From Laetmonice hystrix (lineage: Eukaryota), in NCBI GenBank assembly GCA_965235115.1, contig OZ249436.1, forward strand, positions 22,446,001 to 22,510,000: a stretch of DNA of 64,000 bases, read 5' to 3'. Below, one piece after another: positions 1 to 32,478 of this stretch; position 1 is the stretch's first letter; each line of letters begins with the position of its first letter. A program made the position numbers and the translations under genes. Below the pieces are notes generated by a model. The model was not told where the DNA came from and did not search any database. It worked only from the letters and a program-made list of their open reading frames with translations.

Positions 1-2198
1 AAAGATAACATACTTGGTCTTCTTAATATTGACTGTAAGTTTGTTGCTTTCGCACCATCTAGATAAATTCAGCAGATCTTCTTGCAGTGCCCCAGTTACT
101 TCCTCAATATTACTACCTGACCGAAATGCCACAGTATCGTCTGCATGCAATTGATGATATGAATTTTTTATAGCAGTAGACAAGTCATTAATATACACTA
201 AGAATAGCAAAGGACCCAAAATAGATCCCTGAGGCACTCCGCACATTACTTCTAGTGGATCTGATAGGGAGTTATTGCAGGTAGTACGTTGGAATCGGCC
301 AGAAAGGTAGTTGGCTAACCAGGAAAGTGTCAGACCTTTAATACCTAGGTACTCGAGTTTTTTCAAAAGTATAGAATGGTTAACGGTATCGAAGGCCTTA
401 GATAGGTCTATAAATACGGCAACTGTGACTTCCCTATCATTCATTGCATTAAAAATTCTGTCCACAAGATTTAACGCTGAGTTAGTGGTTGAGTGACCAG
501 AACGAAAGCCCCCTTGTCGATCGTCTAGCAATTTGTTGTCCTCAAAGAACCTAGTCAGTCTCTCATGTACCACTTTCTCCAATAACTTTCCCGGAATTGG
601 GAGGAGTGACACGGGCCTGAGATTCGACACATCAGATTTACTACCGTCTTTTTGGAGAGGCACAACAGTAGCACACTTCCATTCCTGTGGATAAATACCA
701 GTATTCAACGATAAATTGAAAAGGAAGCATACTTTTTCAGGTACGGCAAGAAATGCCTCTTTAATTACTCTACTAGATACGTTATCGATTGATGATGATT
801 TATAGATATTAATATCTTTAGCTAGCTTAATAATTTCTTCTGTTGTCGTGGCTATTTCCCCTATAGCAAGGTTATTCTTAGTACCCTTGTACTCCCACAC
901 CGTGTTATGTTGTCTCGCTAATTTAGGCCCAATATTAGTAAAGAAGTCATTAATAAAGTTTGCGGTTTTATCCAGTTCAATTTTGTTGCCTGTTTCAGTA
1001 TCAATTAGGTTAAATGTGGGCGTTTGCGATTTATTGTTCGGTAACACTTGCTTTAGCATTTGCCAAAACTTCTTACTATCATGGCTATTACTTTCAAGAT
1101 TATCATTGATAAAGTCCGCTTTAGCCCTACGCAGTTTACTTAAAGTTTGATTCTTTAACTTTCTTGCCCTTGCGCAGTCGTCGGGGTTTTGAGTTTGTTT
1201 AGCCCGTTTCAAGGCGTAGTCTTTATCTTTGATAAGTTCAAGTAATTCTGAGGTAATCCAAGGGTCCTTTATTTGCTTGATTTTGAATGTTTTGAGTGGA
1301 CACATACTATCTATTATGTCTCTAACTTTGGTTAGAAAGAGATCCCATGCTTTATCTGGGTTAGTTTCACTGTCAAAGTCCGCCCAGATAGCGTTCCTCA
1401 TACGAGTCTTAAAATATTCCTCATTAAAGTCTCTGTAGGATCTTCCTTTGAACGAAACTTTCTTCTTAATAGTAATGCCTTTTTTACGGGTGACATAAAC
1501 CATATTATGATCACTGATGTTACAGTCTAGGACCCCTGATGTGCAATAAAGTCAGAATTCGTCAGAATCAGGTCCAAACAGCTACATTTACTTTTAGTCA
1601 TTCTTGTAGGTTCATTAATAATTTGTTGTAGTCCGAGAGATCTAGCAAAATTTACAAGTAATTTAAAGTTTTCAGTTTTCTTATCAAGATAGTCGATATT
1701 TATGTCACCCAGGATAAAAAGGTCTTGACCAATCAAATCAATTTCTTGTATGGCATTTTCCAAGTATTCAAGGAATAGTTTAGTATTTCCCTGCGGAGGC
1801 CTATATATCGTAGCAACTATAATTTTGCGTTGTTTCTCAGGTTTTAAGACTATCCATTGTATCTCTATGTCTATGCTGCTTTTATTTAGGTAATTTAGGT
1901 CCGTGTCCGAGAAGGGAATGCCAGCCCTTATGAAGGTAGCCACACCCCCACCCTTTTTGGGGTTCGTACTATCTTGAGAACACCAGGCTCTATCAAGTCT
2001 GACTAAATTGAAATCTGGAATCGATATCATGCCATCTGGTATTTTGGGATTTAACCATGTTTCAGAAACGGTTACTATATGTAAATTCGAGTTATTGATA
2101 TACTGCTTGAGGTGATCAATCTTGTTGAAAATACTCCTCGTATTCAAATGCGAGAGATGTAGGCCCTTGCGACTTGTGATATTGTTCAAGTCATCCAT
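1..2198 (-). pseudogene. LINE-A ORF2 copy 1 (partial), same frameshift near 1538
   Basis: Identical to copy 2, including the frameshift and HADD. Confidence 0.86.
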
Positions 2199-2640
2199 AA
2201 TACAGTGTAAACATTCAAGCTTATTTCATGTGAGAGTGTCCCGATAATGATAGTACCCATCTTCAGTATAATAAACAACTTACAAGTTATCCGACCCTGG
2301 TATAGGCGTCTATCGCCACCAGGGTTATTGTCGACACACAAAGCCATGACACGGTCATACAACATCATGTTGGCTGACTGTAGAAGAAGAAGACAGTCTG
2401 CTCCTCTGCGTGTAGTTTGGAGCATAACCACATTACCTCTGAGAAGAGTATGTCAAGACCTCATCGTTCTGTAAGGTGGTAAGCCAAGTATCACCCCCTT
2501 AGTGAGATTGGTGATTCGTTGAGGCTACCCTTTGGTAATGTTGGCGAATCGGTCTATTAGGACCTAGGAACATTATATATACAACTATATCACATACGTT
2601 GAACCATAATGTACAGCATCATATTTTAGATAACGGCGAG

Positions 2641-3740
2641 CTACATTGAGAACGATGGTTCAGTTGTACAATAACCATCCAATAAACGACGAGTTACTCC
2701 TGTACAAATTACCGTACCTCCTGACTTCGCCATCTTCTACATTGAGATCGATGGGTTGGCACCTGCATCATATGTACGAGTATAAGATACCCGGACCATT
2801 AGGTTTGATCACGTTCTACATTGAGAACTATGGTTCAGTTGTACAATAACCATCCAATAAACGACGAGTTACTCCTGTACAAATTACCGTACCTCCTGAC
2901 TTCGCCATCTTCTACACTGAGATCGATGGGTTGGCCAAGGAGCACCTGCATCATATGTACGAGTATAAGATACCCGGACCATTAGGTTTGACCACATTTC
3001 ACATTGAGAACGATGGTTCAGTTGTTGTGCGATTACTGACGTGCGCCAAGAACTGAAAACCTATATTCTTAATAGTTCTCATTACCTTTGCCCATCCGGA
3101 CACCGCGACTGGGTAGAAACATTTGTAACCAGAAGTCTTACATTACAATAACCATCCAATAAACGGCGAGTTACCCCTGTACAAATTACCGTACCTCCTG
3201 ACTTCGCCATCTTCTACACTGAGATCGATGGGTTGGCCAAGGAGCACCTGCATCATATGTACGAGTATAAGATACCCGGACCACTAGGTTTGATCACGTT
3301 CTACATTGAGAACCATCCAACCCTGTTACCCTGTACAAATTACCGTACCTCCTGACTTCGCCATCTTCTACACTGAGATCGATGGGTTGGCCAAGGAGCA
3401 CCTGCATCATATGTACGAGTATAAGATACCCGGACCACTAGGTTTGATCACGTTCTACATTGAGAACCATCCAACCCTGTTACCCTGTACAAATTACCGT
3501 ACCTCCTGACTTCGCCATCTTCTACACTGAGATCGATGGGTTGGCCAAGGAGCACCTGCATCATATGTACGAGTATAAGATACCCGGACCACTAGGTTTG
3601 ATCACGTTCTACATTGAGAACCATCCAATCCTGTTACCCTGTACAAGTTACCGTACCTCCTGACCTCGCCATCTTCTACATTGAGATCGAAGGGTTGGCC
3701 ATGGAGCACCTGCATCATATGTACAAGTATAAACCTATAT
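2641..3740. repeat. ~154-bp (and longer variant) tandem repeats in the LINE-A inter-ORF spacer, copy 1
   Basis: Unit starts at 3306, 3460 and 3614 (period 154); core tacaaattaccgtacctcctgacttcgccatcttctaca. Confidence 0.9.
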
Positions 3741-3781
3741 ATAGTCTATACCAAGGTGACGGTGGTGAAACACTTCGGCCC

Positions 3782-5128
3782 TTACTGGCTAAGCCTGTCT
3801 CTGTATTCCTGGAGAACAATGCCCAGTTTGTTGCCACTTTTGACGTTAGGTTGTGATATAGAACGGTACTGCGCAAGCGTAAATCCGCACCCGTAAAATG
3901 CATCGTGTGTGGCCTCATACAGATTACCTGTCGTGGAAAGGAGTTTCTCCCTAATTACATTGTTTTGATCAAACTTGAGAGAAACGATCTTCTTCATGGT
4001 TGCGAGTTTAGATTGTTCCCATTCTTGTGTGGACTTGATTTGTTTTCCGAGTCTCATTGCCTCATAAGCATCTTTCGCACAAGAAATTTCCCTCTCTGCC
4101 TCGGGGTTGTGACATTGGCGCGCTTTTTCTGCTTGATACAGGTGTTCTGCCGAGGGGTAGACAGCTCCGTTGTATTTAATTTGACAGGGGTAGAGGTTAG
4201 ATAGAAAGGCGTGGTGCCCCTGGAACGCAACCCCATCTGTTACTTTGACCACCTTGGCCGATTCCAGGGAAAGCCCGTGAGGGAGACTATTGATATCCTG
4301 ATAGGTGTACTTCTCGGCCTCTATGACAAGTGTACCACCCTTGACTTGGGCTTGGATGTCTTGTTTGCGCGCATAGGCTGCGACTGCCCGCAGATCACGG
4401 CGCTCACTCAGGACCTCTGGTGATAAGTCGTCTGTGACGTAGACTCCCTGCCACTTTCTATTGTCTCGTAGACCCGATATGCGTCGAAAGAGTTCTTGTT
4501 TCGCTTGAGTGGTCGAGAACTTGACCATTACCGATCTTGGCCTAGTATTGTTCTTCTTGGGACCCAGCCTGTACACACTGTCGACAATACACGTCGTCAA
4601 ATCCACTTTCAGGTCCCGGAATAACTCCACTACCTTTGCCCTGACATTATCCTCACCGACCTCAGTTAGCCCACCAATAATTATGTTTTTCTTTCTCTTT
4701 TCGTTTTCCAATATGGCAAGCTTTTTTTCTACCGAGCTTAGTTTCAGTTCATATGCTCTCACTTTGGTCTGTGCGTCTTCCAGTTGATCGGATAAGCTGG
4801 ACATATCATTCTCAATTCGGTCCACCCGGTCTGTGAGCGCCTCATTCTTCTCCTTTAACTTATCAACTGTTGCATTTATTGTTTCGATATGTCTGTCCAG
4901 CTTCTCGTTCGCGGCACTAATGGTTGATTTGATATCAGACAACTGTTTACATACGTCTGCATTACCTGCTTGAGTCTTCAGGATCTCCCTCATCAAGTCA
5001 TTCATATCTATTGTATCACTGGGTTCACTTGTGTTCACGCTCACCTGAGGTGTTCTGTTGTCCTGGCCTGAGCACTCAGCCTTTTCCACGCTCCTGGTTT
5101 TGATTTTTGACATGTCCTTAGGGCCCAT
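3782..5128 (-). CDS. LINE-A ORF1p with NADAR domain (copy 1, identical protein)
   Basis: Translation identical to 19938..21284. Confidence 0.85.
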   Translation of the reverse strand: MGPKDMSKIKTRSVEKAECSGQDNRTPQVSVNTSEPSDTIDMNDLMREILKTQAGNADVCKQLSDIKSTISAANEKLDRHIETINATVDKLKEKNEALTDRVDRIENDMSSLSDQLEDAQTKVRAYELKLSSVEKKLAILENEKRKKNIIIGGLTEVGEDNVRAKVVELFRDLKVDLTTCIVDSVYRLGPKKNNTRPRSVMVKFSTTQAKQELFRRISGLRDNRKWQGVYVTDDLSPEVLSERRDLRAVAAYARKQDIQAQVKGGTLVIEAEKYTYQDINSLPHGLSLESAKVVKVTDGVAFQGHHAFLSNLYPCQIKYNGAVYPSAEHLYQAEKARQCHNPEAEREISCAKDAYEAMRLGKQIKSTQEWEQSKLATMKKIVSLKFDQNNVIREKLLSTTGNLYEATHDAFYGCGFTLAQYRSISQPNVKSGNKLGIVLQEYRDRLSQ

Positions 5129-5527
5129 TGGTATCTCCGCAGTAAATGTGAGGGTTATGCTGTTCTCTAATCAAGTATTTGGTATTGACGACCGTATATA
5201 CGGCAATAACGCAGAGGAGCCGACACGTCAACCTGTACTCAGTCCGCCATGTTGTTCCACTGCCTAATCACTGCGCTTCCATATCCTTAAATCTAGCGAA
5301 AGTATACATAATTTCTATTTTATCCGACCACAAACAGGGTGTCTCTCAGTGGCTACGGCGTTCATATACGACTGGGTACCGAGTCGGGGGCAGCCGTATG
5401 CCTGCCACATGCCACTTCTCTAGTTTCGAAGTTTACCACCAGGTAGCAGCACGTCTCTTTTTTCTTTTCTTTTCTCCGTGCGTTTTTCCCAGATCGCCGG
5501 GACGCCCGTTCCCCTGTGGGGGTGGGG

Positions 5528-15300: not shown

Positions 15301-15365
15301 ATCTAAGTAACAGGTTGTATCTACGCGTTGATCACAATGGATAACAAAGGTCTTTAGCTTCGCTT
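12338..15365. mobile_element. Foldback-like element: inverted arms built of ~260-bp tandem units around a ~1.5-kb core
   Basis: Units at ~12340, 12601 and 12857 are reverse complements of units at ~14540-15365. The right arm is interrupted by LINE-A and resumes at 21430-21531. The left arm is repeated at ~28495-29190. Confidence 0.6.
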
Positions 15366-15801
15366 TTTTTTTTTTTTTTTTAATTTCCTTTATTTATCCT
15401 GGCTCGACGTCAGCGTTACCGCTGGTTTACATCGTCTGCCAGCTTACATAATGGTTGATCATCTAGAGATATTATAAATCAACTAAGGTGATATGAAACA
15501 CATCACCGGTAAACGATTACAAACATATTTACACATGGCTTGTTGACATTGTAAGATAGTACATGGGTAGATGGGTACAAATGCTTCTCACTTGGTATAG
15601 GCAATAGATATTAAAATAATCGGGTGCACCTGAGCTTAGAAAAATAAGAATTCTATTTTTTACTAATGTAATACATCTTCGAATTACTAGGTCGCAGGCC
15701 CTGCAATCGCCAGCAATTCAGCCTCCACACATGCCTATGCATTCAACCTATATACATACATACACACACCCATGTCACACCGTCAGAGTGTAGGCAAGCT
15801 A

Positions 15802-18683
15802 TCAGTTATAATTATCATTGTGATTAAAGGAAGCGCTGTTCATCATATTTTTTTGTGTATACTTAAACTGGTCATATGATGTAATATTTCTTATATACAC
15901 AGGTAAGTTATTCCAATCGACAGCCCCTTTGTATAAAGGATTCTGCTTAAATTTTTCTAATCTTGGCTGTGGTACTTTAAACACAGTTGCTGCATGGGTC
16001 CTTGTAGCAATATTCCTACTGTCAATAAGCTCTAAGCATTCCTGTTTTTTGTACATGAAGTTTCTAAGATGGGCTAGTCTTTGGGGTGCTAACATTGCAG
16101 TTTTACATCTTCGATGTAGCTCTGTGGATGATATGTAACCTCCTTCCTTAATGCAAATTCTTAAGGCTCGATTTTGTAGAGTTTGAAGTTTTTTGAGAGC
16201 CTTCTGACTAGCACCGTCGTAAAATAGATCACCATAGTCCAAGTATGGAAGAACCATCGTTTTATACATCAGTAGGCTTGCTTTAAAGTTAATGTATCTT
16301 CTCATTTTGGACAACAGATATACCTTATGAGCAGCTAGTCTGTAACAATTGTCTATGTGCTTAGTGAATGTAAGATGTGTGTCCAACGTGAACCCCAAAT
16401 ACTTGTAAAAGTTAACACGTTCGACAGTTCTATTGTCAAAATACAATTTGTGATTCTTGATTCTTTTAGTTTGGGATTTTAGTCCAAAGATAACATACTT
16501 GGTCTTCTTAATATTGACTGTAAGTTTGTTGCTTTCGCACCATCTAGATAAATTCAGCAGATCTTCTTGCAGTGCCCCAGTTACTTCCTCAATATTACTA
16601 CCTGACCGAAATGCCACAGTATCGTCTGCATGCAATTGATGATATGAATTTTTTATAGCAGTAGACAAGTCATTAATATACACTAAGAATAGCAAAGGAC
16701 CCAAAATAGATCCCTGAGGCACTCCGCACATTACTTCTAGTGGATCTGATAGGGAGTTATTGCAGGTAGTACGTTGGAATCGGCCAGAAAGGTAGTTGGC
16801 TAACCAGGAAAGTGTCAGACCTTTAATACCTAGGTACTCGAGTTTTTTCAAAAGTATAGAATGGTTAACGGTATCGAAGGCCTTAGATAGGTCTATAAAT
16901 ACGGCAACTGTGACTTCCCTATCATTCATTGCATTAAAAATTCTGTCCACAAGATTTAACGCTGAGTTAGTGGTTGAGTGACCAGAACGAAAGCCCCCTT
17001 GTCGATCGTCTAGCAATTTGTTGTCCTCAAAGAACCTAGTCAGTCTCTCATGTACCACTTTCTCCAATAACTTTCCCGGAATTGGGAGGAGTGACACGGG
17101 CCTGAGATTCGACACATCAGATTTACTACCGTCTTTTTGGAGAGGCACAACAGTAGCACACTTCCATTCCTGTGGATAAATACCAGTATTCAACGATAAA
17201 TTGAAAAGGAAGCATACTTTTTCAGGTACGGCAAGAAATGCCTCTTTAATTACTCTACTAGATACGTTATCGATTGATGATGATTTATAGATATTAATAT
17301 CTTTAGCTAGCTTAATAATTTCTTCTGTTGTCGTGGCTATTTCCCCTATAGCAAGGTTATTCTTAGTACCCTTGTACTCCCACACCGTGTTATGTTGTCT
17401 CGCTAATTTAGGCCCAATATTAGTAAAGAAGTCATTAATAAAGTTTGCGGTTTTATCCAGTTCAATTTTGTTGCCTGTTTCAGTATCAATTAGGTTAAAT
17501 GTGGGCGTTTGCGATTTATTGTTCGGTAACACTTGCTTTAGCATTTGCCAAAACTTCTTACTATCATGGCTATTACTTTCAAGATTATCATTGATAAAGT
17601 CCGCTTTAGCCCTACGCAGTTTACTTAAAGTTTGATTCTTTAACTTTCTTGCCCTTGCGCAGTCGTCGGGGTTTTGAGTTTGTTTAGCCCGTTTCAAGGC
17701 GTAGTCTTTATCTTTGATAAGTTCAAGTAATTCTGAGGTAATCCAAGGGTCCTTTATTTGCTTGATTTTGAATGTTTTGAGTGGACACATACTATCTATT
17801 ATGTCTCTAACTTTGGTTAGAAAGAGATCCCATGCTTTATCTGGGTTAGTTTCACTGTCAAAGTCCGCCCAGATAGCGTTCCTCATACGAGTCTTAAAAT
17901 ATTCCTCATTAAAGTCTCTGTAGGATCTTCCTTTGAACGAAACTTTCTTCTTAATAGTAATGCCTTTTTTACGGGTGACATAAACCATATTATGATCACT
18001 GATGTTACAGTCTAGGACCCCTGATGTGCAATAAAGTCAGAATTCGTCAGAATCAGGTCCAAACAGCTACATTTACTTTTAGTCATTCTTGTAGGTTCAT
18101 TAATAATTTGTTGTAGTCCGAGAGATCTAGCAAAATTTACAAGTAATTTAAAGTTTTCAGTTTTCTTATCAAGATAGTCGATATTTATGTCACCCAGGAT
18201 AAAAAGGTCTTGACCAATCAAATCAATTTCTTGTATGGCATTTTCCAAGTATTCAAGGAATAGTTTAGTATTTCCCTGCGGAGGCCTATATATCGTAGCA
18301 ACTATAATTTTGCGTTGTTTCTCAGGTTTTAAGACTATCCATTGTATCTCTATGTCTATGCTGCTTTTATTTAGGTAATTTAGGTCCGTGTCCGAGAAGG
18401 GAATGCCAGCCCTTATGAAGGTAGCCACACCCCCACCCTTTTTGGGGTTCGTACTATCTTGAGAACACCAGGCTCTATCAAGTCTGACTAAATTGAAATC
18501 TGGAATCGATATCATGCCATCTGGTATTTTGGGATTTAACCATGTTTCAGAAACGGTTACTATATGTAAATTCGAGTTATTGATATACTGCTTGAGGTGA
18601 TCAATCTTGTTGAAAATACTCCTCGTATTCAAATGCGAGAGATGTAGGCCCTTGCGACTTGTGATATTGTTCAAGTCATCCAT
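15802..18683 (-). pseudogene. LINE-A ORF2 (APE endonuclease + reverse transcriptase), split by a 1-nt frameshift near 18023
   Basis: APE motifs HLNTRS, VSETWL, GGGVA, YRPP, GDINID and LDLILTN are in 18012..18683. The terminal GVLDCNISDH and the RT motifs (RPVSLLP, QGGFR, FIDLSKAFDTV, GVPQGSILGP, HADD, YKYLG) are in another frame ending at 15802. Confidence 0.88.
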
Positions 18684-19125
18684 AATACAGTGTAAACATT
18701 CAAGCTTATTTCATGTGAGAGTGTCCCGATAATGATAGTACCCATCTTCAGTATAATAAACAACTTACAAGTTATCCGACCCTGGTATAGGCGTCTATCG
18801 CCACCAGGGTTATTGTCGACACACAAAGCCATGACACGGTCATACAACATCATGTTGGCTGACTGTAGAAGAAGAAGACAGTCTGTTCCTCTGCGTGTAG
18901 TTTGGAGCATAACCACATTACCTCTGAGAAGAGTATGTCAAGACCTCATCGTTCTGTAAGGTGGTAAGCCAAGTATCACCCCCTTAGTGAGATTGGTGAT
19001 TCGTTGAGGCTACCCTTTGGTAATGTTGGCGAATCGGTCTATTAGGACCTAGGAACATTATATATACAACTATATCACATACGTTGAACCATAATGTACA
19101 GCATCATATTTTAGATAACGGCGAG

Positions 19126-19895
19126 CTACATTGAGAACGATGGTTCAGTTGTACAATAACCATCCAATAAACGACGAGTTACTCCTGTACAAATTACCGT
19201 ACCTCCTGACTTCGCCATCTTCTACATTGAGATCGATGGGTTGGCCAAGGAGCACCTGCATCATATGTACGAGTATAAGATACCCGGACCATTAGGTTTG
19301 ACCACATTTCACATTGAGAACGATGGTTCAGTTGTTGTGCGATTACTGACGTGCGCCAAGAACTGAAAACCTATATTCTTAATAGTTCTCATTACCTTTG
19401 CCCATCCGGACACCGCGACTGGGTAGAAACATTTGTAACCAGAAGTCTTACATTACAATAACCATCCAATAAACGGCGAGTTACCCCTGTACAAATTACC
19501 GTACCTCCTGACTTCGCCATCTTCTACACTGAGATCGATGGGTTGGCCAAGGAGCACCTGCATCATATGTACGAGTATAAGATACCCGGACCACTAGGTT
19601 TGATCACGTTCTACATTGAGAACCATCCAACCCTGTTACCCTGTACAAATTACCGTACCTCCTGACTTCGCCATCTTCTACACTGAGATCGATGGGTTGG
19701 CCAAGGAGCACCTGCATCATATGTACGAGTATAAGATACCCGGACCACTAGGTTTGATCACGTTCTACATTGAGAACCATCCAATCCTGTTACCCTGTAC
19801 AAGTTACCGTACCTCCTGACCTCGCCATCTTCTACATTGAGATCGAAGGGTTGGCCATGGAGCACCTGCATCATATGTACAAGTATAAACCTATA
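19126..19895. repeat. Same spacer tandem repeat in LINE-A copy 2, 329 bp shorter
   Basis: The offset between duplicates drops from 16485 to 16156 across this array. Confidence 0.9.
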
Positions 19896-19937
19896 TATAG
19901 TCTATACCAAGGTGACGGTGGTGAAACACTTCGGCCC

Positions 19938-21284
19938 TTACTGGCTAAGCCTGTCTCTGTATTCCTGGAGAACAATGCCCAGTTTGTTGCCACTTTTGAC
20001 GTTAGGTTGTGATATAGAACGGTACTGCGCAAGCGTAAATCCGCACCCGTAAAATGCATCGTGTGTGGCCTCATACAGATTACCTGTCGTGGAAAGGAGT
20101 TTCTCCCTAATTACATTGTTTTGATCAAACTTGAGAGAAACGATCTTCTTCATGGTTGCGAGTTTAGATTGTTCCCATTCTTGTGTGGACTTGATTTGTT
20201 TTCCGAGTCTCATTGCCTCATAAGCATCTTTCGCACAAGAAATTTCCCTCTCTGCCTCGGGGTTGTGACATTGGCGCGCTTTTTCTGCTTGATACAGGTG
20301 TTCTGCCGAGGGGTAGACAGCTCCGTTGTATTTAATTTGACAGGGGTAGAGGTTAGATAGAAAGGCGTGGTGCCCCTGGAACGCAACCCCATCTGTTACT
20401 TTGACCACCTTGGCCGATTCCAGGGAAAGCCCGTGAGGGAGACTATTGATATCCTGATAGGTGTACTTCTCGGCCTCTATGACAAGTGTACCACCCTTGA
20501 CTTGGGCTTGGATGTCTTGTTTGCGCGCATAGGCTGCGACTGCCCGCAGATCACGGCGCTCACTCAGGACCTCTGGTGATAAGTCGTCTGTGACGTAGAC
20601 TCCCTGCCACTTTCTATTGTCTCGTAGACCCGATATGCGTCGAAAGAGTTCTTGTTTCGCTTGAGTGGTCGAGAACTTGACCATTACCGATCTTGGCCTA
20701 GTATTGTTCTTCTTGGGACCCAGCCTGTACACACTGTCGACAATACACGTCGTCAAATCCACTTTCAGGTCCCGGAATAACTCCACTACCTTTGCCCTGA
20801 CATTATCCTCACCGACCTCAGTTAGCCCACCAATAATTATGTTTTTCTTTCTCTTTTCGTTTTCCAATATGGCAAGCTTTTTTTCTACCGAGCTTAGTTT
20901 CAGTTCATATGCTCTCACTTTGGTCTGTGCGTCTTCCAGTTGATCGGATAAGCTGGACATATCATTCTCAATTCGGTCCACCCGGTCTGTGAGCGCCTCA
21001 TTCTTCTCCTTTAACTTATCAACTGTTGCATTTATTGTTTCGATATGTCTGTCCAGCTTCTCGTTCGCGGCACTAATGGTTGATTTGATATCAGACAACT
21101 GTTTACATACGTCTGCATTACCTGCTTGAGTCTTCAGGATCTCCCTCATCAAGTCATTCATATCTATTGTATCACTGGGTTCACTTGTGTTCACGCTCAC
21201 CTGAGGTGTTCTGTTGTCCTGGCCTGAGCACTCAGCCTTTTCCACGCTCCTGGTTTTGATTTTTGACATGTCCTTAGGGCCCAT
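19938..21284 (-). CDS. LINE-A ORF1p, 448 aa: coiled coil + L1-type RRM/CTD + C-terminal NADAR (YbiA-like) domain
   Basis: Heptad coiled coil at aa ~45-145. RRM/CTD motifs RKKNIIIGGL, YRLG..PRSVMVKF and VYVTDDLSPE. NADAR motifs FLSNLYP, YPSAEHLYQAEKA, KFDQN..REKLLST, LYEATHDAFYGCG and GNKLG. Confidence 0.85.
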   Translation of the reverse strand: MGPKDMSKIKTRSVEKAECSGQDNRTPQVSVNTSEPSDTIDMNDLMREILKTQAGNADVCKQLSDIKSTISAANEKLDRHIETINATVDKLKEKNEALTDRVDRIENDMSSLSDQLEDAQTKVRAYELKLSSVEKKLAILENEKRKKNIIIGGLTEVGEDNVRAKVVELFRDLKVDLTTCIVDSVYRLGPKKNNTRPRSVMVKFSTTQAKQELFRRISGLRDNRKWQGVYVTDDLSPEVLSERRDLRAVAAYARKQDIQAQVKGGTLVIEAEKYTYQDINSLPHGLSLESAKVVKVTDGVAFQGHHAFLSNLYPCQIKYNGAVYPSAEHLYQAEKARQCHNPEAEREISCAKDAYEAMRLGKQIKSTQEWEQSKLATMKKIVSLKFDQNNVIREKLLSTTGNLYEATHDAFYGCGFTLAQYRSISQPNVKSGNKLGIVLQEYRDRLSQ

Positions 21285-21683
21285 TGGTATCTCCGCAGTA
21301 AATGTGAGGGTTATGCTGTTCTCTAATCAAGTATTTGGTATTGACGACCGTATATACGGCAATAACGCAGAGGAGCCGACACGTCAACCTGTACTCAGTC
21401 CGCCATGTTGTTCCACTGCCTAATCACTGCGCTTCCATATCCTTAAATCTAGCGAAAGTATACATAATTTCTATTTTATCCGACCACAAACAGGGTGTCT
21501 CTCAGTGGCTACGGCGTTCATATACGACTGGGTACCGAGTCGGGGGCAGCCGTATGCCTGCCACATGCCACTTCTCTAGTTTCGAAGTTTACCACCAGGT
21601 AGCAGCACGTCTCTTTTTTCTTTTCTTTTCTCCGTGCGTTTTTCCCAGATCGCCGGGACGCCCGTTCCCCTGTGGGGGTGGGG

Positions 21684-24600
21684 CTACGCTGTATCCCATT
21701 CATTTAGATGGGTATTAATTCTTATTAGGTTTTTTGCTGCCTTATGCACTATGTTCATGTCTTTCGAGAATATTTGCGAGATCAGGGTTTTTGTCTCATC
21801 GTCTTTGTGTATTCCTGGGCATGTTTCCATAAGGTGTTGTTGTGTTTCATCTTCTTGGCCACACCCCCTACATTGTAGGTTATTATATTTGTTTTTATAG
21901 TTTCCTTTGGCTTTTATCATCCTTGTTCTTGCCATGAATATTGCACTTGCCTGATTCCTTGTTAGTTCCTGTAGGTATGTCGGTGTTCTTTTTCCATCTT
22001 CCTTGTTTGTTGTTAGGAATATATACTTAGATTTGTTTCTCCCGTCATTCTTCATTTTCTCCTCCATTTGTTGTTTCGCCATTCTCCTTATTGTCTCTTT
22101 CCTTTGGTGTATCCCCATTGTTTGGAGGTTTGATATATCCATGCTCATCTGTTCTGCCAGTTGTCTGGTTCTTTGGTTCCATGATTTAGTGTTGTTGTCT
22201 TGGGTTATTTGTCTCATGCTTTTCAGGTTATTTCCTTGTAGTTTGGTGGCATAGTTAATTTTTTTTGTGGCTATTATGTGTTCAATGTCAAGGAGTTTGG
22301 TTTCTTCGTATATGCATTCTCTTGGGGTGGATTGGGGTATTCTTAGGAGTCTTTTTATTATGTTGTCGAGGATTGTATTCAGTTTTTTCATTTGGGTTCG
22401 GTTTATGGTCCATGTTTCAGCTCCATATGTTATTATCGGGATTATGCATGTTTTCACTAGTGTCCATATGGTTTCCATCTCTATGCCTTTGAAGTTGTCG
22501 TCTTCTGCTATCTGTAGGATGGTTTGTAGTGCTGCTTCAGTTTTTCTTTCTGTCTCTTGGATGTGGTCGTCTATGTTGTTTTTATTGTTAATAGTCTCTC
22601 CCAGGTACTTGTATTTATTTGTTGGTTCTATGGTAACGTCCCCTATTGTTAGTATATTGTCGTGGTTTCCCTTACCTATGGTCATGGTTTTTGATTTTTC
22701 TTTTCCGAATTCTATTCTCAGGTCACTCGCCACTCTGTTTGTTATTGCTAGTAGTCTCTTTTGGTCATCCATGTTGTTTGTTATTAGGACTACATCATCT
22801 ACCCACAGGAGGCAGATTGAGTTCTTGTCGATGCTGGTTTCCTGGAGTTCTTTGGCTTTCATTATTTCCTTGTTGATTTCATCCATGAGTGTGGCGTATT
22901 GGGTGACCGCTAGGACTCCACCTTGTCTTATGCTATCTCTTATTTTTATGGGTCTGGTGTTGCCGTGGGATGTTCTTATTGTAGCTGTTAGGTTATTGTT
23001 GAGTTTATCTATTAGGTTCCAGGTGGCTCCTGTGCATCCTTGTTTGTGGAGTATGAACATGATGGCATCGATCCATGCCTTATCGTATGCTTTGGTCACA
23101 TCTAGGAATGTTATGTAGGTATTTTTGTTGCAATTTTTGTTTTGTCTTATTATTTCTTTTATTCTTAGGATGTGGTCCGTGGTGCTCATCCCTTTTCTCC
23201 CTCCTGCTTGTTCGTCTGTTATTTTTATGGTTTTTAGGATTCTGTTGTTTATCAGTCTCTCATATGTTTTTCCTATGTTACTTGACAGGGTTATACCTCT
23301 TTCATTGCTGCATTTTCCTTTGACTCCTTTTCCTTTATACATTCTAATGACTTCTCCCTCTAGCCATTGGGTTGGGATTTCCTTGGTTTCCGAGATGTGG
23401 TTGAGTGCTGCTAGGTATATTTTCCTTGTTCTCTTGTTAGCATTTATGAGCACTGTGTTTGGTATGTTATCTGGTCCATTGGCCTTTTGTTTTTTGAGTT
23501 TTTTAATGACTGTGTTCAGCTCTTCGCTAGTGAATGGTTCCATTTGGTCCTGTTGTGTGGTTTGTCTTAGTTTGTTGACCGTTGCTTGTATGTTTTTTGA
23601 GCTTTCTTCGTTTTCTGGTTTTCCTTCTCTTGCTTGGTACAGTTGTTCGTAGTAGTTAGCTATGTGGTTCTTTTTCTCCTGGGGGTTGGTTATCTCTACT
23701 CCTTGTTCGTTTCGGAGGTATTTGTCTATGTTATCTTCCTTTTTTAGGATTTTCTTCCTTGTTTTCCAGAAATCTTTGGACTTCGACCCTCCTTGGAGTA
23801 CAAGGTTTTTCATTTTTATCCTTGTTGTTATCTCTAGGTTCGCTTGAATTCTGTTTCTTAGGTTTTTCTGTGCTCTTATGTAGTTGTCCTGTTTCTGTTC
23901 TATTTGGGAGTTAGGCTGTTTTGTTTTGATGGCCTTTTCGTACTCTTGTCTTGTTTTTCGTTTTTCTTCTCTTAAGTTCTTGGTTTGTCTGTCTTCTTTT
24001 TTTCTCCCTTTTCCTCTTATGGTTATTGTTCCTATATTTCTTTTTAGGCTTTCTTTTATTGTGGTCTCTAGGGTGCTGTAGCTAGTTTTCACCCTCTCTA
24101 GGTTTTTTGTAATATCATTGTTGAATTTTCTCCATGCTTCTTTGTTACCTGGTGCCCATATTTTTGTGTGTTTTTGTTTGGTTTTTCCGATGGCACAGTT
24201 TAGGTTGAGGGTAATGGTATTATGGTCCGTCTCTTTCCTCCCTTTCAGGGTGTAGATATTGTGGGTATGTATGGTGGTATCCGTTACCCTTTGTGCCATC
24301 CCTTCGTTGCATAAGATATAGTCAATTATTGAATGTTCTGAGTTCTTGTTTCTATTTTGGCGTGTCCAGTTTATGTTGTGCGGTTCTGTGTTCAGGACTT
24401 TCATGGCTGTTGCTTCAATGATGTTTGTTAGTAGTTTTCCATTCCTGCTTTCATCTTGAGTGTATGGTGGTATATCTGTTTTTATCTTTGCGTTAAAGTC
24501 TCCTATGAGTATGACGTCTCCTTGTTGTTTTAGTTCCGTGATTGTGGTTCCTATTTCATAGTATTCCCTGCTTACTGTCTCCTTGTCTATTTTTTCTTGG

Positions 24601-24998
24601 GGTCCATAGTAGGCTCCGAGGTATGTTGGCTTGTTCTTTGTTTTGATCTTTATCCATATGATTTCGTGGTGGTTATGTTTTGGGAGGTCTAGTTCTTGTG
24701 AGTTTTGGAAGGTTTCTTGGTCGATTAGTATCCCTATTCCTCCTCCGCTTTTTTCTTTTCTTGGTTTGTGGTACCATTGGTATCCTTCTATGTTTGGTGG
24801 TTTCTTGGTTTTTGTTTCGGCTATGATGGCTATGTTGGTTTCGTGGGTTCTTAGGGTTGCTTCTAGGCTGGCTTTTTTCCCTGTGATTCCATTTGCATTG
24901 GTATATAGTATTTTGATGGGTTTATTTTGGGTATTCCGATATTTTCTTTTCCTGGGGCTGTGTTTTCTTTTGTTTTTTTGTAGGGGGTGGCCTTCCTC
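21684..24998 (-). CDS. LINE-B ORF2 copy 2 (in frame with ORF1 after UAG)
   Basis: Identical to copy 1. Confidence 0.9.
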   Translation of the reverse strand, partial: EEGHPLQKNKRKHSPRKRKYRNTQNKPIKILYTNANGITGKKASLEATLRTHETNIAIIAETKTKKPPNIEGYQWYHKPRKEKSGGGIGILIDQETFQNSQELDLPKHNHHEIIWIKIKTKNKPTYLGAYYGPQEKIDKETVSREYYEIGTTITELKQQGDVILIGDFNAKIKTDIPPYTQDESRNGKLLTNIIEATAMKVLNTEPHNINWTRQNRNKNSEHSIIDYILCNEGMAQRVTDTTIHTHNIYTLKGRKETDHNTITLNLNCAIGKTKQKHTKIWAPGNKEAWRKFNNDITKNLERVKTSYSTLETTIKESLKRNIGTITIRGKGRKKEDRQTKNLREEKRKTRQEYEKAIKTKQPNSQIEQKQDNYIRAQKNLRNRIQANLEITTRIKMKNLVLQGGSKSKDFWKTRKKILKKEDNIDKYLRNEQGVEITNPQEKKNHIANYYEQLYQAREGKPENEESSKNIQATVNKLRQTTQQDQMEPFTSEELNTVIKKLKKQKANGPDNIPNTVLINANKRTRKIYLAALNHISETKEIPTQWLEGEVIRMYKGKGVKGKCSNERGITLSSNIGKTYERLINNRILKTIKITDEQAGGRKGMSTTDHILRIKEIIRQNKNCNKNTYITFLDVTKAYDKAWIDAIMFILHKQGCTGATWNLIDKLNNNLTATIRTSHGNTRPIKIRDSIRQGGVLAVTQYATLMDEINKEIMKAKELQETSIDKNSICLLWVDDVVLITNNMDDQKRLLAITNRVASDLRIEFGKEKSKTMTIGKGNHDNILTIGDVTIEPTNKYKYLGETINNKNNIDDHIQETERKTEAALQTILQIAEDDNFKGIEMETIWTLVKTCIIPIITYGAETWTINRTQMKKLNTILDNIIKRLLRIPQSTPRECIYEETKLLDIEHIIATKKINYATKLQGNNLKSMRQITQDNNTKSWNQRTRQLAEQMSMDISNLQTMGIHQRKETIRRMAKQQMEEKMKNDGRNKSKYIFLTTNKEDGKRTPTYLQELTRNQASAIFMARTRMIKAKGNYKNKYNNLQCRGCGQEDETQQHLMETCPGIHKDDETKTLISQIFSKDMNIVHKAAKNLIRINTHLNEWDTA

Positions 24999-26705
24999 CT
25001 ATCTCCTGTGGTATCTGTCTGGTGATTGATTTCTGGGTCTTTTTTCTCTGGGCTCTGGGTTTTGCTCGTATCTTTGTTTGTTTGTTGTCCTTCCCTGTCT
25101 TTCTTCGTCTTCCCTCTGTTCCACTATTTTCATTATTTCGTGTATTGTTTGGTCTACATTTTCCGTTGTTGTTCCTGTTACTTTCATTGTCTCTGAGTCG
25201 TTGTCGTAGGCTGCCATGGTTTTGTTTCTGCTTGTTATTGTGTGTATTGTTTTCCCTCCTCTCCCTAGTACGTGTTTCACGATATTCCTGTTGATCTTTG
25301 TTTCTGCCGCACATTTTGTTTTTGTGGATATTTCGAGGTGTTCTGTGCTCGGGGTTTTTGGGTTTTTGGGTTTTTGGGTTCTTTCATCTGTTTTTTGTTC
25401 GTCGAGTAGTGCTTCAATCATTTCTGTCAGATTTTGGGCTGTTGCTTCCGCAGTCTCCTCTGTTATGTGGTATCCATCTTTCTCCAGTTTTGTGTTTCTT
25501 GGGTAGGGGTCGATTACTTTTTTGTTTTCCTCTCTTAGGTATTTTGGGAACATGTTTCTTTCGATTTCTCTGGATGGTGCTGCGAATCTTGGGGGTTTTA
25601 TGAATATCGTTTTGTGAGGAGGTAGGTTCTTTGTGGCTCTTGTCAGTTGTCTTGTCGTTTCTTTCGCTGTCTCTCCGTGTCTGATGTGGTTCGTCCCTAT
25701 GTGCATCATTATGATGTCGTGGTCCTCTATCTCTTGGGTGTTGTCATCTAGTGTCTCTTGGAGTTGTTGGGTAGTATATATTGTTTTTATGTGGGTTTCG
25801 GTGGTTTCGGTGTCTTCTATGTATCTTGAGATCTTGGTCAGGTTTGAGTCACCGAGGATGACTACTTTGCTCTTTTTGGGTATTTTGTCTTCTTTTATAG
25901 TTTCTTTTTGGGTTTTCATTTTTTCTTCTATCAGCTGGTCAATTACCTCATCTTTGTGTCCCAGGGTTTCGTAGGCTTCTTCGTTTTCTTTCGTCAGGAT
26001 TCTGATTTTCTCTTTGTCTTTTGCTGCTTCAAGTTTTAGTTGGGTTATCGTTTTTTCGTGTTCGTCAATTTGTTCCAGGGCGTTTTCTAGTTGGTCTATG
26101 GCATTCAGTGACTGTTCCTGTAGTTCTTCTTGTTTGTTTATAAGTTCTGTTATTTTCGCGTTGGCGTTTCTTGCCTCCTGGGTTGTCTTTTGTTCGTCTC
26201 TGGCACTTTCTCTTTTGAGTTGGTTTTTTTCTTTTTCTGTTTCTGTTAGTTTTGATTTTAGGCTTTTGTTTAGGGCTTCCATTTCCTTCTTTGTTCGATT
26301 CGCTTCTATTTCCGTTTCTTTGATTTTCTCGTTGAGTTTTTTGTTTTGGGTTTCTGTCAGGTCACAGTTTTTGCACTTTTTATTTGTTTCCTTGCTGGTG
26401 TCTTTGTCTTCTTTCCCCATTGCAAGTTTTTTGTAGCTTCCGTCTTTTTTCCTGGCAGACTCCCTCATTGGTCTGCTTGTGGTTGGGGTTAGGTCCTGTT
26501 GTGGTTGGGTTTTCGTGTTTTTTGGTTTTGTTGTTTGGGTGTTTTGGGGGGTTCTTGTCTGTGATTCTTCGCTATCTGTAGTTGATGATTCATCGTCCGT
26601 GTTTATTTTGCCTTTCGTTTGTATGTCGATTTCAATGTCAGAGGCTGACGTATCGGGTTTTTCTTGTTTTTTTGGGTTTTTGGGGTCTTCTTGGTCTTGT
26701 TCCAT
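24999..26705 (-). CDS. LINE-B ORF1p copy 2
   Basis: Identical translation to 8843..10549. Confidence 0.82.
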   Translation of the reverse strand: MEQDQEDPKNPKKQEKPDTSASDIEIDIQTKGKINTDDESSTTDSEESQTRTPQNTQTTKPKNTKTQPQQDLTPTTSRPMRESARKKDGSYKKLAMGKEDKDTSKETNKKCKNCDLTETQNKKLNEKIKETEIEANRTKKEMEALNKSLKSKLTETEKEKNQLKRESARDEQKTTQEARNANAKITELINKQEELQEQSLNAIDQLENALEQIDEHEKTITQLKLEAAKDKEKIRILTKENEEAYETLGHKDEVIDQLIEEKMKTQKETIKEDKIPKKSKVVILGDSNLTKISRYIEDTETTETHIKTIYTTQQLQETLDDNTQEIEDHDIIMMHIGTNHIRHGETAKETTRQLTRATKNLPPHKTIFIKPPRFAAPSREIERNMFPKYLREENKKVIDPYPRNTKLEKDGYHITEETAEATAQNLTEMIEALLDEQKTDERTQKPKNPKTPSTEHLEISTKTKCAAETKINRNIVKHVLGRGGKTIHTITSRNKTMAAYDNDSETMKVTGTTTENVDQTIHEIMKIVEQREDEERQGRTTNKQRYEQNPEPREKRPRNQSPDRYHRR

Positions 26706-32399: not shown

Positions 32400-32478
32400 G
32401 TCAGATGGCGTAGCACTGGCGATAAGTGTCTTGACTCACATGCTATGGGTCGCCGGTTCAATCCCAGGCCGAGTCACC
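32400..32478 (+). pseudogene. Degenerate tRNA-like module inside the outermost HINE
   Basis: tggcgtagcactgg ... ggttcaatccc followed by a T-run; the B-box segment is repeated at ~32512. Confidence 0.35.

What the first reader, a model, noticed from the sequence alone, without database searches (positions are those of the whole stretch)
19938..20387. LINE ORF1p fused to a NADAR (ADP-ribose/N-glycohydrolase) domain: candidate retrotransposon-encoded counter-defence
Seen: aa ~300-446 of the 448-aa ORF1 carry, in order, FLSNLYP, SAEHLYQAEKA (E328, H329, K335), KFDQN..REKLLST, YEATHDAFYGCG (E405, D409) and GNKLG. They follow an ordinary L1-type coiled coil/RRM/CTD, and the ORF lies inside a TSD- and poly(A)-bounded LINE (second copy at 3782-4231). 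Known: NADAR/YbiA proteins hydrolyse N-glycosidic bonds, and the NADAR antitoxin of DarT1-NADAR removes ADP-ribose from guanine in DNA. Animal guanine-ADP-ribosylating enzymes exist (pierisin, clam CARP-1). The LINE ORF1 accessory domains I know are PHD, CCHC, RRM and esterase, not NADAR. Inference: the RNP may carry an eraser that protects its RNA or nascent cDNA from host ADP-ribosylation, much as viral macrodomains do.
Basis: partly seen in the sequence, partly recalled or inferred. Interest (0 to 1): 0.9.

Follow-up and report, generated by a model that had tools for sequence, protein, structure and literature searches.

The report
LINE ORF1 protein with NADAR enzyme domain
A jumping gene in this animal genome makes an RNA-binding coat protein that ends in an apparently working NADAR enzyme domain (the kind that cuts ADP-ribose off DNA and RNA bases), a fusion mentioned once before for oyster elements but never tested.

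Summary
The core observation holds. ORF1 (window 19938-21284, minus strand, 448 aa) ends in a NADAR domain: Pfam E 1.7e-25, and an AlphaFold model whose best PDB match is Phytophthora NADAR. It follows a coiled coil, RRM and CTD that match human L1 ORF1p by fold. All residues that contact ADP-ribose in the solved NADAR are kept or conservatively replaced, including the catalytic Glu (E405).

The fusion is not confined to this locus. 52 distinct open ORF1s from this genome, as little as 28% identical in the NADAR part, keep E328 (52/52) and E405 (51/52). NADAR is the best-conserved third of the protein. A profile search finds 2,798 public cluster representatives at E<=1e-30.

- The "second copy" belongs to a 16-kb tandem segmental duplication.
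- No target-site duplication is detectable.
- A 2025 paper already notes NADAR domains in ORF1 of oyster Tx1 LINEs.

New context: many sister families carry an SGNH-esterase ORF between ORF1 and ORF2. A Gypsy-like Pol in the same genome also carries a NADAR domain.

An eraser of base-linked ADP-ribose on the element's RNA or cDNA is the best-supported reading, but it is untested. No host writer enzyme was found, and those searches were uninformative.

The parts
15364..21412 (-). Complete LINE copy, 6,049 bp: 5'UTR, ORF1, spacer, ORF2, 3'UTR, poly(A)
   Evidence: The ends are defined by alignment to three other copies with different flanks (L031, L032, L033); all start AACAACATGGCGG
19938..21284 (-). 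ORF1, 448 aa, open: coiled coil, RRM, CTD and NADAR
20850..21161 (-). Coiled coil (aa 42-145)
   Evidence: One long helix in the AF2 model, pLDDT about 90; Foldseek matches the human L1 ORF1p trimer 2ykp/2yko at E about 7e-9
20442..20843 (-). RRM plus CTD-like part (aa 148-281)
   Evidence: A beta-alpha-beta-beta-alpha-beta unit, then a helix and three strands in the AF2 model; Foldseek hits 2ykp, 2yko and 2ldy (RRM-CTD of L1 ORF1p) and many RRMs; no Pfam family matched this part
19947..20372 (-). NADAR domain (Pfam envelope aa 305-446); the finding's 19938-20387 covers it
   Evidence: Pfam E 1.7e-25; 8bau/2b3w by sequence and by fold, TM 0.73/0.69 on the target; active-site residues S310, E328, K335, W370, E405, D409, Y412
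18684..19937 (-). ORF1-ORF2 spacer with a 154-bp tandem array at 19480-19888; no esterase ORF in this family
   Evidence: tblastn with the esterase-like ORFs finds nothing in this element
15802..18683 (-). ORF2 (APE endonuclease 18012-18683, RT 15802-17988), broken by a frameshift between the two parts
   Evidence: Pfam Exo_endo_phos and RVT_1; comparison with the open 960-aa ORF2 of L031
15364..15394 (-). AATAAA (15389-15394) and an 18-A tail (15364-15381)
1..5256 (-). Same LINE in the other unit of the tandem duplication, cut by the window start; ORF1 3782-5128, NADAR 3791-4216

Best explanation
ORF1p of this LINE is an L1-ORF1p-like RNA-binding protein (coiled coil, RRM, CTD) with a catalytically competent Glu-type (YbiA/NADAR-class) NADAR N-glycohydrolase added to its C-terminus. 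Because ORF1p coats the element's own RNA, the enzyme travels in the RNP. It most likely removes ADP-ribose that is N-linked to guanine or cytosine on the LINE RNA, on the exposed target DNA or on the nascent cDNA, so that reverse transcription is not blocked. This is a counter-measure to nucleic-acid ADP-ribosylation by host (CARP-1/pierisin-type) or environmental ADP-ribosyltransferases. Shown here: domain identity, fold, active-site residues, long-term selection, and spread over many LINE families plus one LTR lineage. Inferred: enzymatic activity (my odds about 0.75), a nucleic-acid ADP-ribose substrate (about 0.45), and a counter-defence role (about 0.35-0.4).
For: The domain is a NADAR by Pfam, E 1.7e-25, and by fold: 8bau with ADP-ribose, E 2.4e-9, target TM 0.73, rmsd 2.8. 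Every ADP-ribose-contacting residue named for P. nicotianae NADAR in PMC11543638 (passages) is kept or conservatively replaced in the alignment: E43=E328, K50=K335, R79=K362, W89=W370, R93=K374, E125=E405, D130=D409, W133=Y412. Of 52 distinct open ORF1s from 70 loci of this genome, which are 28-100% identical in the NADAR part, S310 is kept in 52, E328 in 52, E405 in 51, W370 in 51, D409 in 49, and position 412 is aromatic in 52. NADAR is the most conserved third of the protein. Between families synonymous sites are saturated (pS 0.75-0.91) while pN is 0.21-0.54. Of 147 public representatives, S310 is kept in 146, E328 in 146 and E405 in 144. NADAR- and YbiA-class enzymes, including a sponge enzyme, remove G-ADPr and C-ADPr from ssDNA and ssRNA in vitro (PMC12945103, passages). 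DNA guanine-N2 ADP-ribosylating activity exists in six clam species, and CARP-1 has no receptor-binding domain (PMC11209040, passages). NADAR domains also sit in polyproteins of annelid and bivalve picornaviruses and other invertebrate RNA viruses, where they largely exclude macrodomains (PMC9503650, passages). A Gypsy-like Pol in this genome carries a NADAR domain too.
Against: No activity was measured and no substrate is known. No writer enzyme was found in this genome (with silent controls). The phosphate-binding Lys (K335) is K or R in only 38 of 52 genome copies (Cys in 10) and in 125 of 147 public representatives. D409 is kept in only 88 of 147 public representatives. Earlier notes of this scan (e1-7350017, e1-7350018, not checked by me) describe LINE ORF1 NADAR-fold domains in other genomes that have lost the catalytic residues, so a non-enzymatic role exists somewhere in this group. 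The one paper that notes the fusion suggests RNA processing instead. An animal NADAR protein, C. elegans SNA-3, works in an snRNP with no known ADP-ribose link.
Confidence: 0.45

Rival explanations
1. The NADAR domain serves the element's own RNA metabolism rather than counter-defence. It would process an NAD- or ADP-ribose-derived group that arises during RNA processing or repair (for example products of 2'-phosphotransferase-type reactions) or an unknown N-glycosidic adduct on the LINE transcript.
For: PMC12477816 proposes processing of RNA intermediates for the oyster and Ectocarpus elements. PMC9503650 recounts predicted links of NADAR to RNA repair. C. elegans SNA-3, a three-NADAR protein, is an essential SL1 snRNP factor, and mutating residues homologous to the N-glycosidase residues impairs it (PMC9303266, passages). 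The active site is conserved, which fits any enzymatic role.
Against: No such step is known in LINE replication, and most LINE clades do without the domain. The only activities shown for this class on nucleic acids are removal of base-linked ADP-ribose.
Confidence: 0.2
2. The domain is a non-catalytic binding module, for nucleic acid or ADP-ribose, that extends ORF1p's RNA-binding surface.
For: Earlier scan notes (e1-7350017, e1-7350018, unchecked) report LINE ORF1 NADAR-fold domains with replaced catalytic residues in other genomes. K335 varies: it is K or R in 38 of 52 copies.
Against: The catalytic Glu is kept in 51 of 52 genome copies and 144 of 147 public representatives, and E328 in 52 of 52 and 146 of 147, at as little as 26-28% overall domain identity. 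A pure binding module would not hold these residues.
Confidence: 0.1
3. The enzyme acts on soluble ADP-ribose-derived signals or metabolites (cyclic ADPR-like immune signals, or reactive riboflavin intermediates as for E. coli YbiA), not on nucleic acids.
For: YbiA's proven role is hydrolysis of riboflavin intermediates (as cited in PMC11543638). [quoted passage not shown]
Against: The domain is fused to an RNA-coating protein and inherited by LINE and LTR elements, which points to a substrate at the RNP. PMC9503650 itself argues that NADARs of animal RNA viruses target macromolecular ADP-ribosylation.
Confidence: 0.1
4. A chance, locus-specific fusion: a host NADAR exon captured once and drifting neutrally.
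For: The two window copies are one segmental duplication, so the window alone gives no independent replication.
Against: 97 ORF1 matches in this genome run down to 29% identity, and nearly all reach the end of NADAR in open frames. With the Pfam NADAR model, 150 of 150 scored matches (of 741 candidates) pass the cut-off, mostly in frames of 430-480 aa. 2,798 public representatives score E<=1e-30.
Confidence: 0.01

Closest known systems
ORF1 NADAR domains of Tx1 LINE families of Crassostrea gigas (Repbase), noted in PMC12477816 (Genome Biol 2025)
   Same: A YbiA-family NADAR domain inside a LINE ORF1 protein of a marine invertebrate. This is the same kind of fusion.
   Different: That paper gives one sentence and an alignment figure, with no active-site, fold, selection or copy analysis, and it suggests RNA processing. 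I could not see Repbase, so I cannot say whether this family is one of theirs. The ORF2 here has no Cys/His knuckle at its C-terminus by eye, and scores no better against L1 (2e-14) than against R2 (1.2e-15). A Tx1 (L1-group) placement is therefore not established.
Human LINE-1 ORF1p (PDB 2ykp, 2yko, 2ldy)
   Same: Coiled coil, RRM and CTD in the same order; Foldseek E 7e-9 to 2e-6.
   Different: 17-20% identity and no Pfam Transposase_22 hit. L1 ORF1p ends after the CTD, whereas this protein goes on into a 150-aa enzyme domain.
Phytophthora nicotianae NADAR (PDB 8BAU) and E. coli YbiA (2B3W)
   Same: Same fold; Ser/Glu/Lys core and Glu-type catalytic position. The Phytophthora enzyme hydrolyses guanine-ADPr (PMC11543638).
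   Different: Those are free-standing proteins. About 26% identity. R79 and R93 are Lys here, and W133 is Tyr.
DarG1 NADAR antitoxins and orphan phage NADARs that neutralise DarT1 (PMC11543638; PMC11825919, abstract only from the search listing)
   Same: The proposed logic is the same: a mobile element carries a NADAR to undo guanine ADP-ribosylation of its nucleic acid.
   Different: DarG1 has Asp and phage NADARs have His at the catalytic position, whereas this protein has Glu. No DarT is nearby and no DarT match was found in the genome (control silent). This is a eukaryotic retroelement.
Macro and NADAR domains in polyproteins of animal positive-strand RNA viruses (PMC9503650)
   Same: An ADP-ribose-removing domain built into the replication proteins of an RNA-based parasite; annelid and bivalve picornaviruses are among the carriers.
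   Different: Here the carrier is a nuclear retrotransposon, and the domain sits on the RNA-coating protein rather than next to the polymerase.
[quoted passage not shown]
   Same: A retroelement-borne NADAR. This genome also has a Gypsy-like Pol with NADAR between protease and RT (L081).
   Different: The Ectocarpus domains retrieve bacterial relatives. The Gypsy-like NADAR here groups with this genome's LINE ORF1 NADARs in an unrooted tree.
Esterase-type ORF1 proteins of CR1/L2-group LINEs (recalled, not from a call)
   Same: Sister families of this LINE carry an SGNH-fold esterase. The ORF2 tails share a WN.LP...FK motif that I recall from the CR1/L2 group.
   Different: Here the esterase is a separate ORF placed after an L1-like ORF1, and the window's own family has lost it.

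Membership tests
NADAR superfamily (PF08719) | Profile match above the curated cut-off | tested here: met
   90.6 bits against 35.1, E 1.7e-25; sister families score 77.6-92.7 bits
NADAR superfamily (PF08719) | NADAR/YbiA alpha+beta fold | tested here: met
   AF2 model with pLDDT 93-98 over the domain; Foldseek 8bau E 2.4e-9 with target TM 0.73, 2b3w E 1.2e-7 with TM 0.69
NADAR superfamily (PF08719) | Conserved Ser, Glu and Lys of the substrate channel (PMC12945103) | tested here: met
   S310 in 52/52, E328 in 52/52, K335 as K or R in 38/52; 146, 146 and 125 of 147 public representatives
YbiA/NADAR-class (Glu-type) as against DarG1 (Asp) or phage (His) class | Glu at the position of P. nicotianae E125 / SCO5665 E167 | tested here: met
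   E405 aligns to it; kept in 51/52 and 144/147
NADAR superfamily (PF08719) | N-glycohydrolase activity on base-linked ADP-ribose | not testable with these tools
   Needs an enzyme assay
DarTG1 toxin-antitoxin system | NADAR encoded next to a DarT1 ADP-ribosyltransferase | tested here: not met
   The neighbours are LINE ORFs. No PF14487 match in the genome, although the control genomes were silent too
L1-type (coiled coil-RRM-CTD) ORF1p | Coiled coil, then RRM, then CTD | tested here: met
   AF2 secondary structure; Foldseek to 2ykp, 2yko and 2ldy
L1-type (coiled coil-RRM-CTD) ORF1p | Sequence-family membership (Pfam L1 ORF1 models) | tested here: not met
   No such Pfam hit at E<=0.01; the likeness is by fold only
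L1-type (coiled coil-RRM-CTD) ORF1p | Trimer formation and RNA binding | not tested
   No complex prediction or assay was run
Tx1 clade of LINEs (as published for the oyster elements) | RT-domain phylogeny placing ORF2 in the L1/Tx1 group | not testable with these tools
   No named reference RTs were at hand. PDB scores for R2 (1.2e-15) and L1 (2e-14) are alike, and Atlas look-alikes are unnamed APE-RT LINEs
APE-type non-LTR retrotransposon | APE endonuclease plus RT in ORF2, poly(A) tail, multiple dispersed copies | tested here: met
APE-type non-LTR retrotransposon | Target-site duplication | tested here: not met
   No shared word above chance in 3 of 3 full copies
Esterase-bearing LINEs | SGNH/GDSL esterase encoded upstream of ORF2 | tested here: inconclusive
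   Present in sister families: SGNH fold, and 34 of 94 ORF1 places have it within 1 kb downstream. Absent from the window's family, with a remnant in the C12 copy

The most novel reading that the evidence does not exclude
Base-linked ADP-ribosylation of nucleic acids (CARP-1/pierisin-type writers) is a so-far unrecognised restriction mechanism against retroelements and RNA viruses in lophotrochozoan animals. LINE ORF1p, a Gypsy-like Pol and picorna-like viruses of these hosts would then all carry NADAR erasers to escape it. In many LINE families the NADAR works beside an SGNH esterase, as a two-enzyme de-modification kit.
Probability: 0.25. Interest if true: 0.9.

Novelty: new member of a known kind. 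Interest (0 to 1): 0.62.

Why it matters
Physiological roles of eukaryotic NADAR enzymes are unknown. The ADP-ribosylation papers read here say openly that endogenous guanine or cytosine ADP-ribosylation in eukaryotes may exist but has not been found (PMC12945103). A NADAR with an intact active site, welded to the RNA-coating protein of hundreds of LINE copies and passed to an LTR element, is a natural pointer to such a modification and to where it acts. It turns the question into a simple enzyme assay plus a search for the host writer. For transposon biology it adds an enzymatic ORF1p type: coiled coil, RRM, CTD and NADAR, often followed by an esterase ORF. That type has so far had only one sentence in print.

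Tried and rejected
- RNA evidence: no RNA holder was listed for the ORF1 stretch, so no reads were laid.
- Host writers: family searches of the genome with PF01375 (Enterotoxin_a), PF14487 (DarT) and PF01129 (ART) gave no match, but the control genomes were silent too. I had no pierisin, CARP-1 or ScARP sequence or profile to search with.
- Taxon range: word-indexed protein searches gave only 12 and 6 unnamed hits. The cluster look-up gave no names. The only taxon labels are 'Annelida' for two Atlas clusters.
- LINE clade: not resolved.
- Longer public relatives (660-727 aa) are not ORF1-esterase fusions. Their extra C-terminal parts do not match the esterase ORF, and Pfam sees only NADAR in them.
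- Esterase ORF: Pfam and the PDB sequence search found nothing. Only the fold search identified it.
- dN/dS: only 5 of the 1,326 pairs had usable dS. NADAR omega was 0.22-0.38 on 4-7 nonsynonymous changes in four of those pairs; the fifth had no synonymous change in NADAR. This is weak on its own.
- TSD search: nothing above chance.
- My first reading of the ORF2 break as a simple in-frame stop was wrong. The two pieces are in different frames.
- 'Independent convergent capture by LTR elements' is not supported as such. In an unrooted tree of 113 NADAR domains the Gypsy-like domain sits on a long branch inside a group of this genome's LINE domains, with enclosing supports of 0.84-0.97. That suggests transfer between elements, but there is no outgroup and only one Gypsy sequence.
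Full report
WHAT IS THERE

On the minus strand, window 19938..21284 is an open 448-aa frame. Residues 328, 329, 335, 405 and 409 are E, H, K, E and D, as stated. Pfam places a NADAR domain (PF08719) at aa 305-446, with E 1.7e-25 and 90.6 bits against a cut-off of 35.1, covering profile positions 9-162 of 163. A sequence search of the PDB finds two chains: the Phytophthora nicotianae NADAR solved with ADP-ribose (8bau, E 9.3e-11) and E. coli YbiA (2b3w, E 5.4e-9).

FOLD

I built an AlphaFold2 model from an alignment of 60 relatives. It has mean pLDDT 87.4, and 93-98 over the NADAR part. It shows four parts:
- a disordered head (aa 1-40);
- one long helix (aa 42-145);
- an RRM-like unit followed by a helix and three strands (aa 148-281);
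- the NADAR domain.

Foldseek against the PDB ranks 8bau first (E 2.4e-9, target TM 0.73, rmsd 2.8). The human LINE-1 ORF1p trimer follows (2ykp, 2yko; E about 7e-9 to 5e-7; target TM 0.45-0.56), then YbiA (E 1.2e-7, TM 0.69) and the L1 RRM-CTD solution structure 2ldy. No Pfam L1 ORF1 family matches by sequence.

ACTIVE SITE

Schuller et al. 2023 (PMC11543638; passages read) name the residues of the P. nicotianae enzyme that hold ADP-ribose: E43, K50, R79, W89, R93, E125, D130 and W133. E125 is the position that defines the classes: Glu in the YbiA type, Asp in DarT1-associated NADARs, His in phage NADARs. Changing the equivalent Asp in E. coli C7 NADAR abolishes efficient guanine de-ADP-ribosylation.

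In the alignment these residues correspond to E328, K335, K362, W370, K374, E405, D409 and Y412. Every one is kept or conservatively replaced, and the protein is of the Glu type.

The 2026 Toxins paper (PMC12945103; passages) reports three things that bear on this:
- Ser, Glu and Lys are the most conserved residues of the family.
- The Glu equivalent to E328 mainly positions the ribose.
- NADAR- and YbiA-class enzymes, including one from a sponge, remove both G-ADPr and C-ADPr from ssDNA and ssRNA.

THE ELEMENT

ORF2 has APE endonuclease and RT domains. Alignment to three further copies on other chromosomes, each with different flanks, fixes the element at window 15364..21412, or 6,049 bp. It starts AACAACATGGCGG and ends in AATAAA and 18 A.

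I found no target-site duplication. In 3 of 3 full copies the longest word shared by the 5' flank and the 3' end is 5-6 nt, as in random sequence.

The window copy's ORF2 is broken by a frameshift between the endonuclease and RT parts. Another copy (L031) has both frames open, at 448 and 960 aa.

Between ORF1 and ORF2 lie 1.25 kb that include a 154-bp tandem array.

Window 1-14267 equals 16486-30416 at 99.5-99.85% identity, a tandem segmental duplication.

NOT A ONE-OFF

- Searching the window's own 627-Mb assembly with ORF1 gave 97 matches (94 scored of 898 candidates), from 100% down to 29% identity. Nearly all reach residue 444-448, and most are in open frames.
- The Pfam NADAR model gave 150 matches over the cut-off from 150 scored of 741 candidates, mostly in frames of 430-480 aa.
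- From 70 fetched loci, 60 ORFs of 300 aa or more hit the query. Of these, 53 cover it from aa 120 or earlier to aa 440 or later, and 52 are distinct.
- In those 52: S310 in 52, N311 in 50, E328 in 52, W370 in 51, E405 in 51, D409 in 49, an aromatic residue at 412 in 52, N433 in 51 and G436 in 52.
- Less well kept: K335 is K in 30, R in 8 and C in 10. K362 is K or R in 25.
- NADAR is the best-conserved third of the protein in most comparisons with diverged families, for example 35-49% identity against 12-32% for the N-terminal third.
- Between families, synonymous sites are saturated (pS 0.75-0.91) while pN in NADAR is 0.21-0.54.
- Only five pairs had usable dS overall. Four of them gave a NADAR omega of 0.22-0.38 on a handful of changes; the fifth had no synonymous change in NADAR.

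PUBLIC DATA

A profile of the 60-sequence alignment, run against 1.84 billion cluster representatives, gave 85,750 hits at E<=0.001, 39,963 at E<=1e-10 and 2,798 at E<=1e-30. By my count from the table, about 140 of the best 150 match in one stretch from the coiled coil or RRM part through to the end of NADAR.

I aligned 147 of those 150, dropping three for length. They are 26-52% identical to the window's NADAR, with a median of 34%. S310 is kept in 146, E328 in 146, E405 in 144, W370 in 138 and K or R at 335 in 125. D409 is kept in only 88, with N in 31 and S in 11.

The ESM Atlas look-alikes are three clusters of 415-489 aa in which 100% of members carry NADAR. Two of those clusters carry a taxon record, Eukaryota with Annelida the commonest phylum; the third has none.

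CONTEXT FOUND ON THE WAY

1. Esterase ORF. Sister families, including the 55-57%-identical one, have an extra ORF of 215-266 aa between ORF1 and ORF2.
   - No Pfam or PDB sequence match was found.
   - Its model (pLDDT 82.7) matches SGNH/GDSL esterases, with 137 Foldseek hits at E<=0.001.
   - It has 123 matches in the genome.
Of the 94 ORF1 places, 34 have the esterase within 1 kb downstream on the same strand. This is a lower bound.
   - The window's family has lost it. An older copy on C12 keeps a remnant.
2. Gypsy-like Pol. A Gypsy-like Pol in the same genome reads protease, NADAR, RT, RNase H, integrase.
   - Its NADAR is 30% identical to the window's and has His at the catalytic-Glu position.
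   - Three long open frames, one only 63% identical to the others, keep it.
   - In an unrooted tree of 113 NADAR domains it sits on a long branch inside a group of this genome's LINE domains, with enclosing supports of 0.84-0.97.
   - That suggests transfer between elements. There is no outgroup, so this is a lead only.

CLADE

I could not place ORF2 in a named LINE clade.
- It scores alike against R2 (1.2e-15) and human L1 ORF2p (2e-14) in the PDB.
- Atlas look-alikes are unnamed APE-RT proteins of echinoderms, cnidarians and arthropods.
- The ORF2 tails of all eight families I read share a WN.LP...FK motif and lack a Cys/His knuckle. From memory this looks like the CR1/L2 group rather than L1/Tx1. 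That is recalled, not tested.

WHAT IS IN PRINT

I ran six searches linking NADAR, YbiA or DUF1768 with retrotransposon, LINE, ORF1, ORF1p, non-LTR or transposable. I opened only the one with many NADAR mentions and judged the other rows from their titles and abstracts. It is the Ectocarpus TE paper (PMC12477816). I read its passages and the legend of its supplementary Fig. S2.

That paper reports NADAR domains in Pol of one Gypsy lineage. [quoted passage not shown]

The survey of viral NAD-ADPr systems (PMC9503650; passages) does not mention retroelements: both search terms gave 0 occurrences. It does report NADAR in polyproteins of annelid and bivalve picornaviruses, invertebrate nidoviruses and hepe-like viruses. 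There the domain is largely exclusive with macrodomains, and the authors argue that these viral domains counter host macromolecular ADP-ribosylation.

The pierisin review (PMC11209040; passages) reports guanine-N2 DNA ADP-ribosylating activity in six edible clams. It describes CARP-1 as a transferase without a receptor-binding domain.

Two earlier notes of this scan (e1-7350017, e1-7350018; other genomes, not checked by me) describe NADAR-fold domains in LINE ORF1 whose catalytic residues are replaced. The scan has therefore met this kind of fusion before, on other DNA, in a degenerate form.

MOST LIKELY MECHANISM

ORF1p coats the LINE RNA in cis, as L1 ORF1p does; this is established for L1 and inferred here from the fold. 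The NADAR domain would then ride on the RNP into the nucleus. Given the intact Glu-type site and the published substrate range of this class, the most likely chemistry is hydrolysis of the N-glycosidic bond between ADP-ribose and guanine or cytosine in single-stranded RNA or DNA. Those forms are exposed during target-primed reverse transcription.

Three points make counter-defence the leading reading:
- retention over deep divergence in LINEs;
- spread to an LTR element;
- the same domain in RNA viruses of related hosts, together with clam DNA-ADP-ribosylating enzymes.

None of this is shown. I found no writer in this genome, because the three family searches had silent controls. I had no expression data. 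An RNA-processing role with a different substrate, as for C. elegans SNA-3 in the SL1 snRNP (PMC9303266, passages), remains a serious rival.

VERDICT

The fusion is real, probably enzymatically active and under selection. It is a very large family rather than a curiosity of this locus. Its existence in oyster LINEs is already in print, and its function is open. I rate it a new member of a known kind, with fairly high interest, because it gives a direct and cheap test for an unproven nucleic-acid ADP-ribosylation conflict in animals.

Noticed in passing
window 1-14267 and 16486-30416: A tandem segmental duplication with a unit of about 16.15 kb, 99.5-99.85% identical, carries the NADAR LINE, a second LINE and flanking DNA. 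The two units differ in the copy number of the 154-bp array inside the LINE spacer.
   Followed up: partly
L036:2878-3552, L029:786-1475, L024:843-1640 and others; 123 matches in the genome: Many sister families have a 215-266-aa ORF between ORF1-NADAR and ORF2, with DSRG, GVNNLT and DGLHP motifs. Its AF2 model (pLDDT 82.7) matches SGNH/GDSL esterases, with 137 Foldseek hits at E<=0.001. 34 of 94 ORF1 places have it within 1 kb downstream. No Pfam family matches it.
   Followed up: yes
L081 (G000:C1:23016500-23023500), ORF 2824-6999+: A Gypsy-like LTR-retrotransposon Pol reads protease, NADAR (aa 349-490, Pfam E 1e-29), RT, RNase H, integrase. Its NADAR has His at the catalytic-Glu position, as phage NADARs do. 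Three long open frames (1649-1667 aa), including one only 63% identical, keep the NADAR-RT stretch; other Gypsy Pols match only the RT part.
   Followed up: partly
window 21684-26705 (minus strand); duplicate at 5528-10549: The neighbouring LINE differs in kind. Its 568-aa ORF1 has a long coiled coil, GDS...DGYH motifs that look like an SGNH esterase by eye, and a borderline Pfam KH_1 hit (21.9 bits against a cut-off of 21.5). Its ORF2 has RT and a C-terminal Cys/His knuckle.
   Followed up: no
window about 32000-39200, 51100-57700, 60000-63100: Large satellite arrays with 146-147-bp (and 298-bp) periods fill much of the right half of the window.
   Followed up: no
L033 (G000:C12:30058600-30067000): An older copy of the window's own family (95% ORF1 identity) still has about 745 bp between ORF1 and the repeats, with a remnant of the esterase ORF. 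It is interrupted by an unrelated 885-aa ORF on the other strand.
   Followed up: partly
public representatives P0019 (4,240 aa, 7 stretches), P0026 (1,075 aa, 5 NADAR stretches), P0160: Some public proteins hold several NADAR domains in tandem. I did not work out what they are.
   Followed up: no
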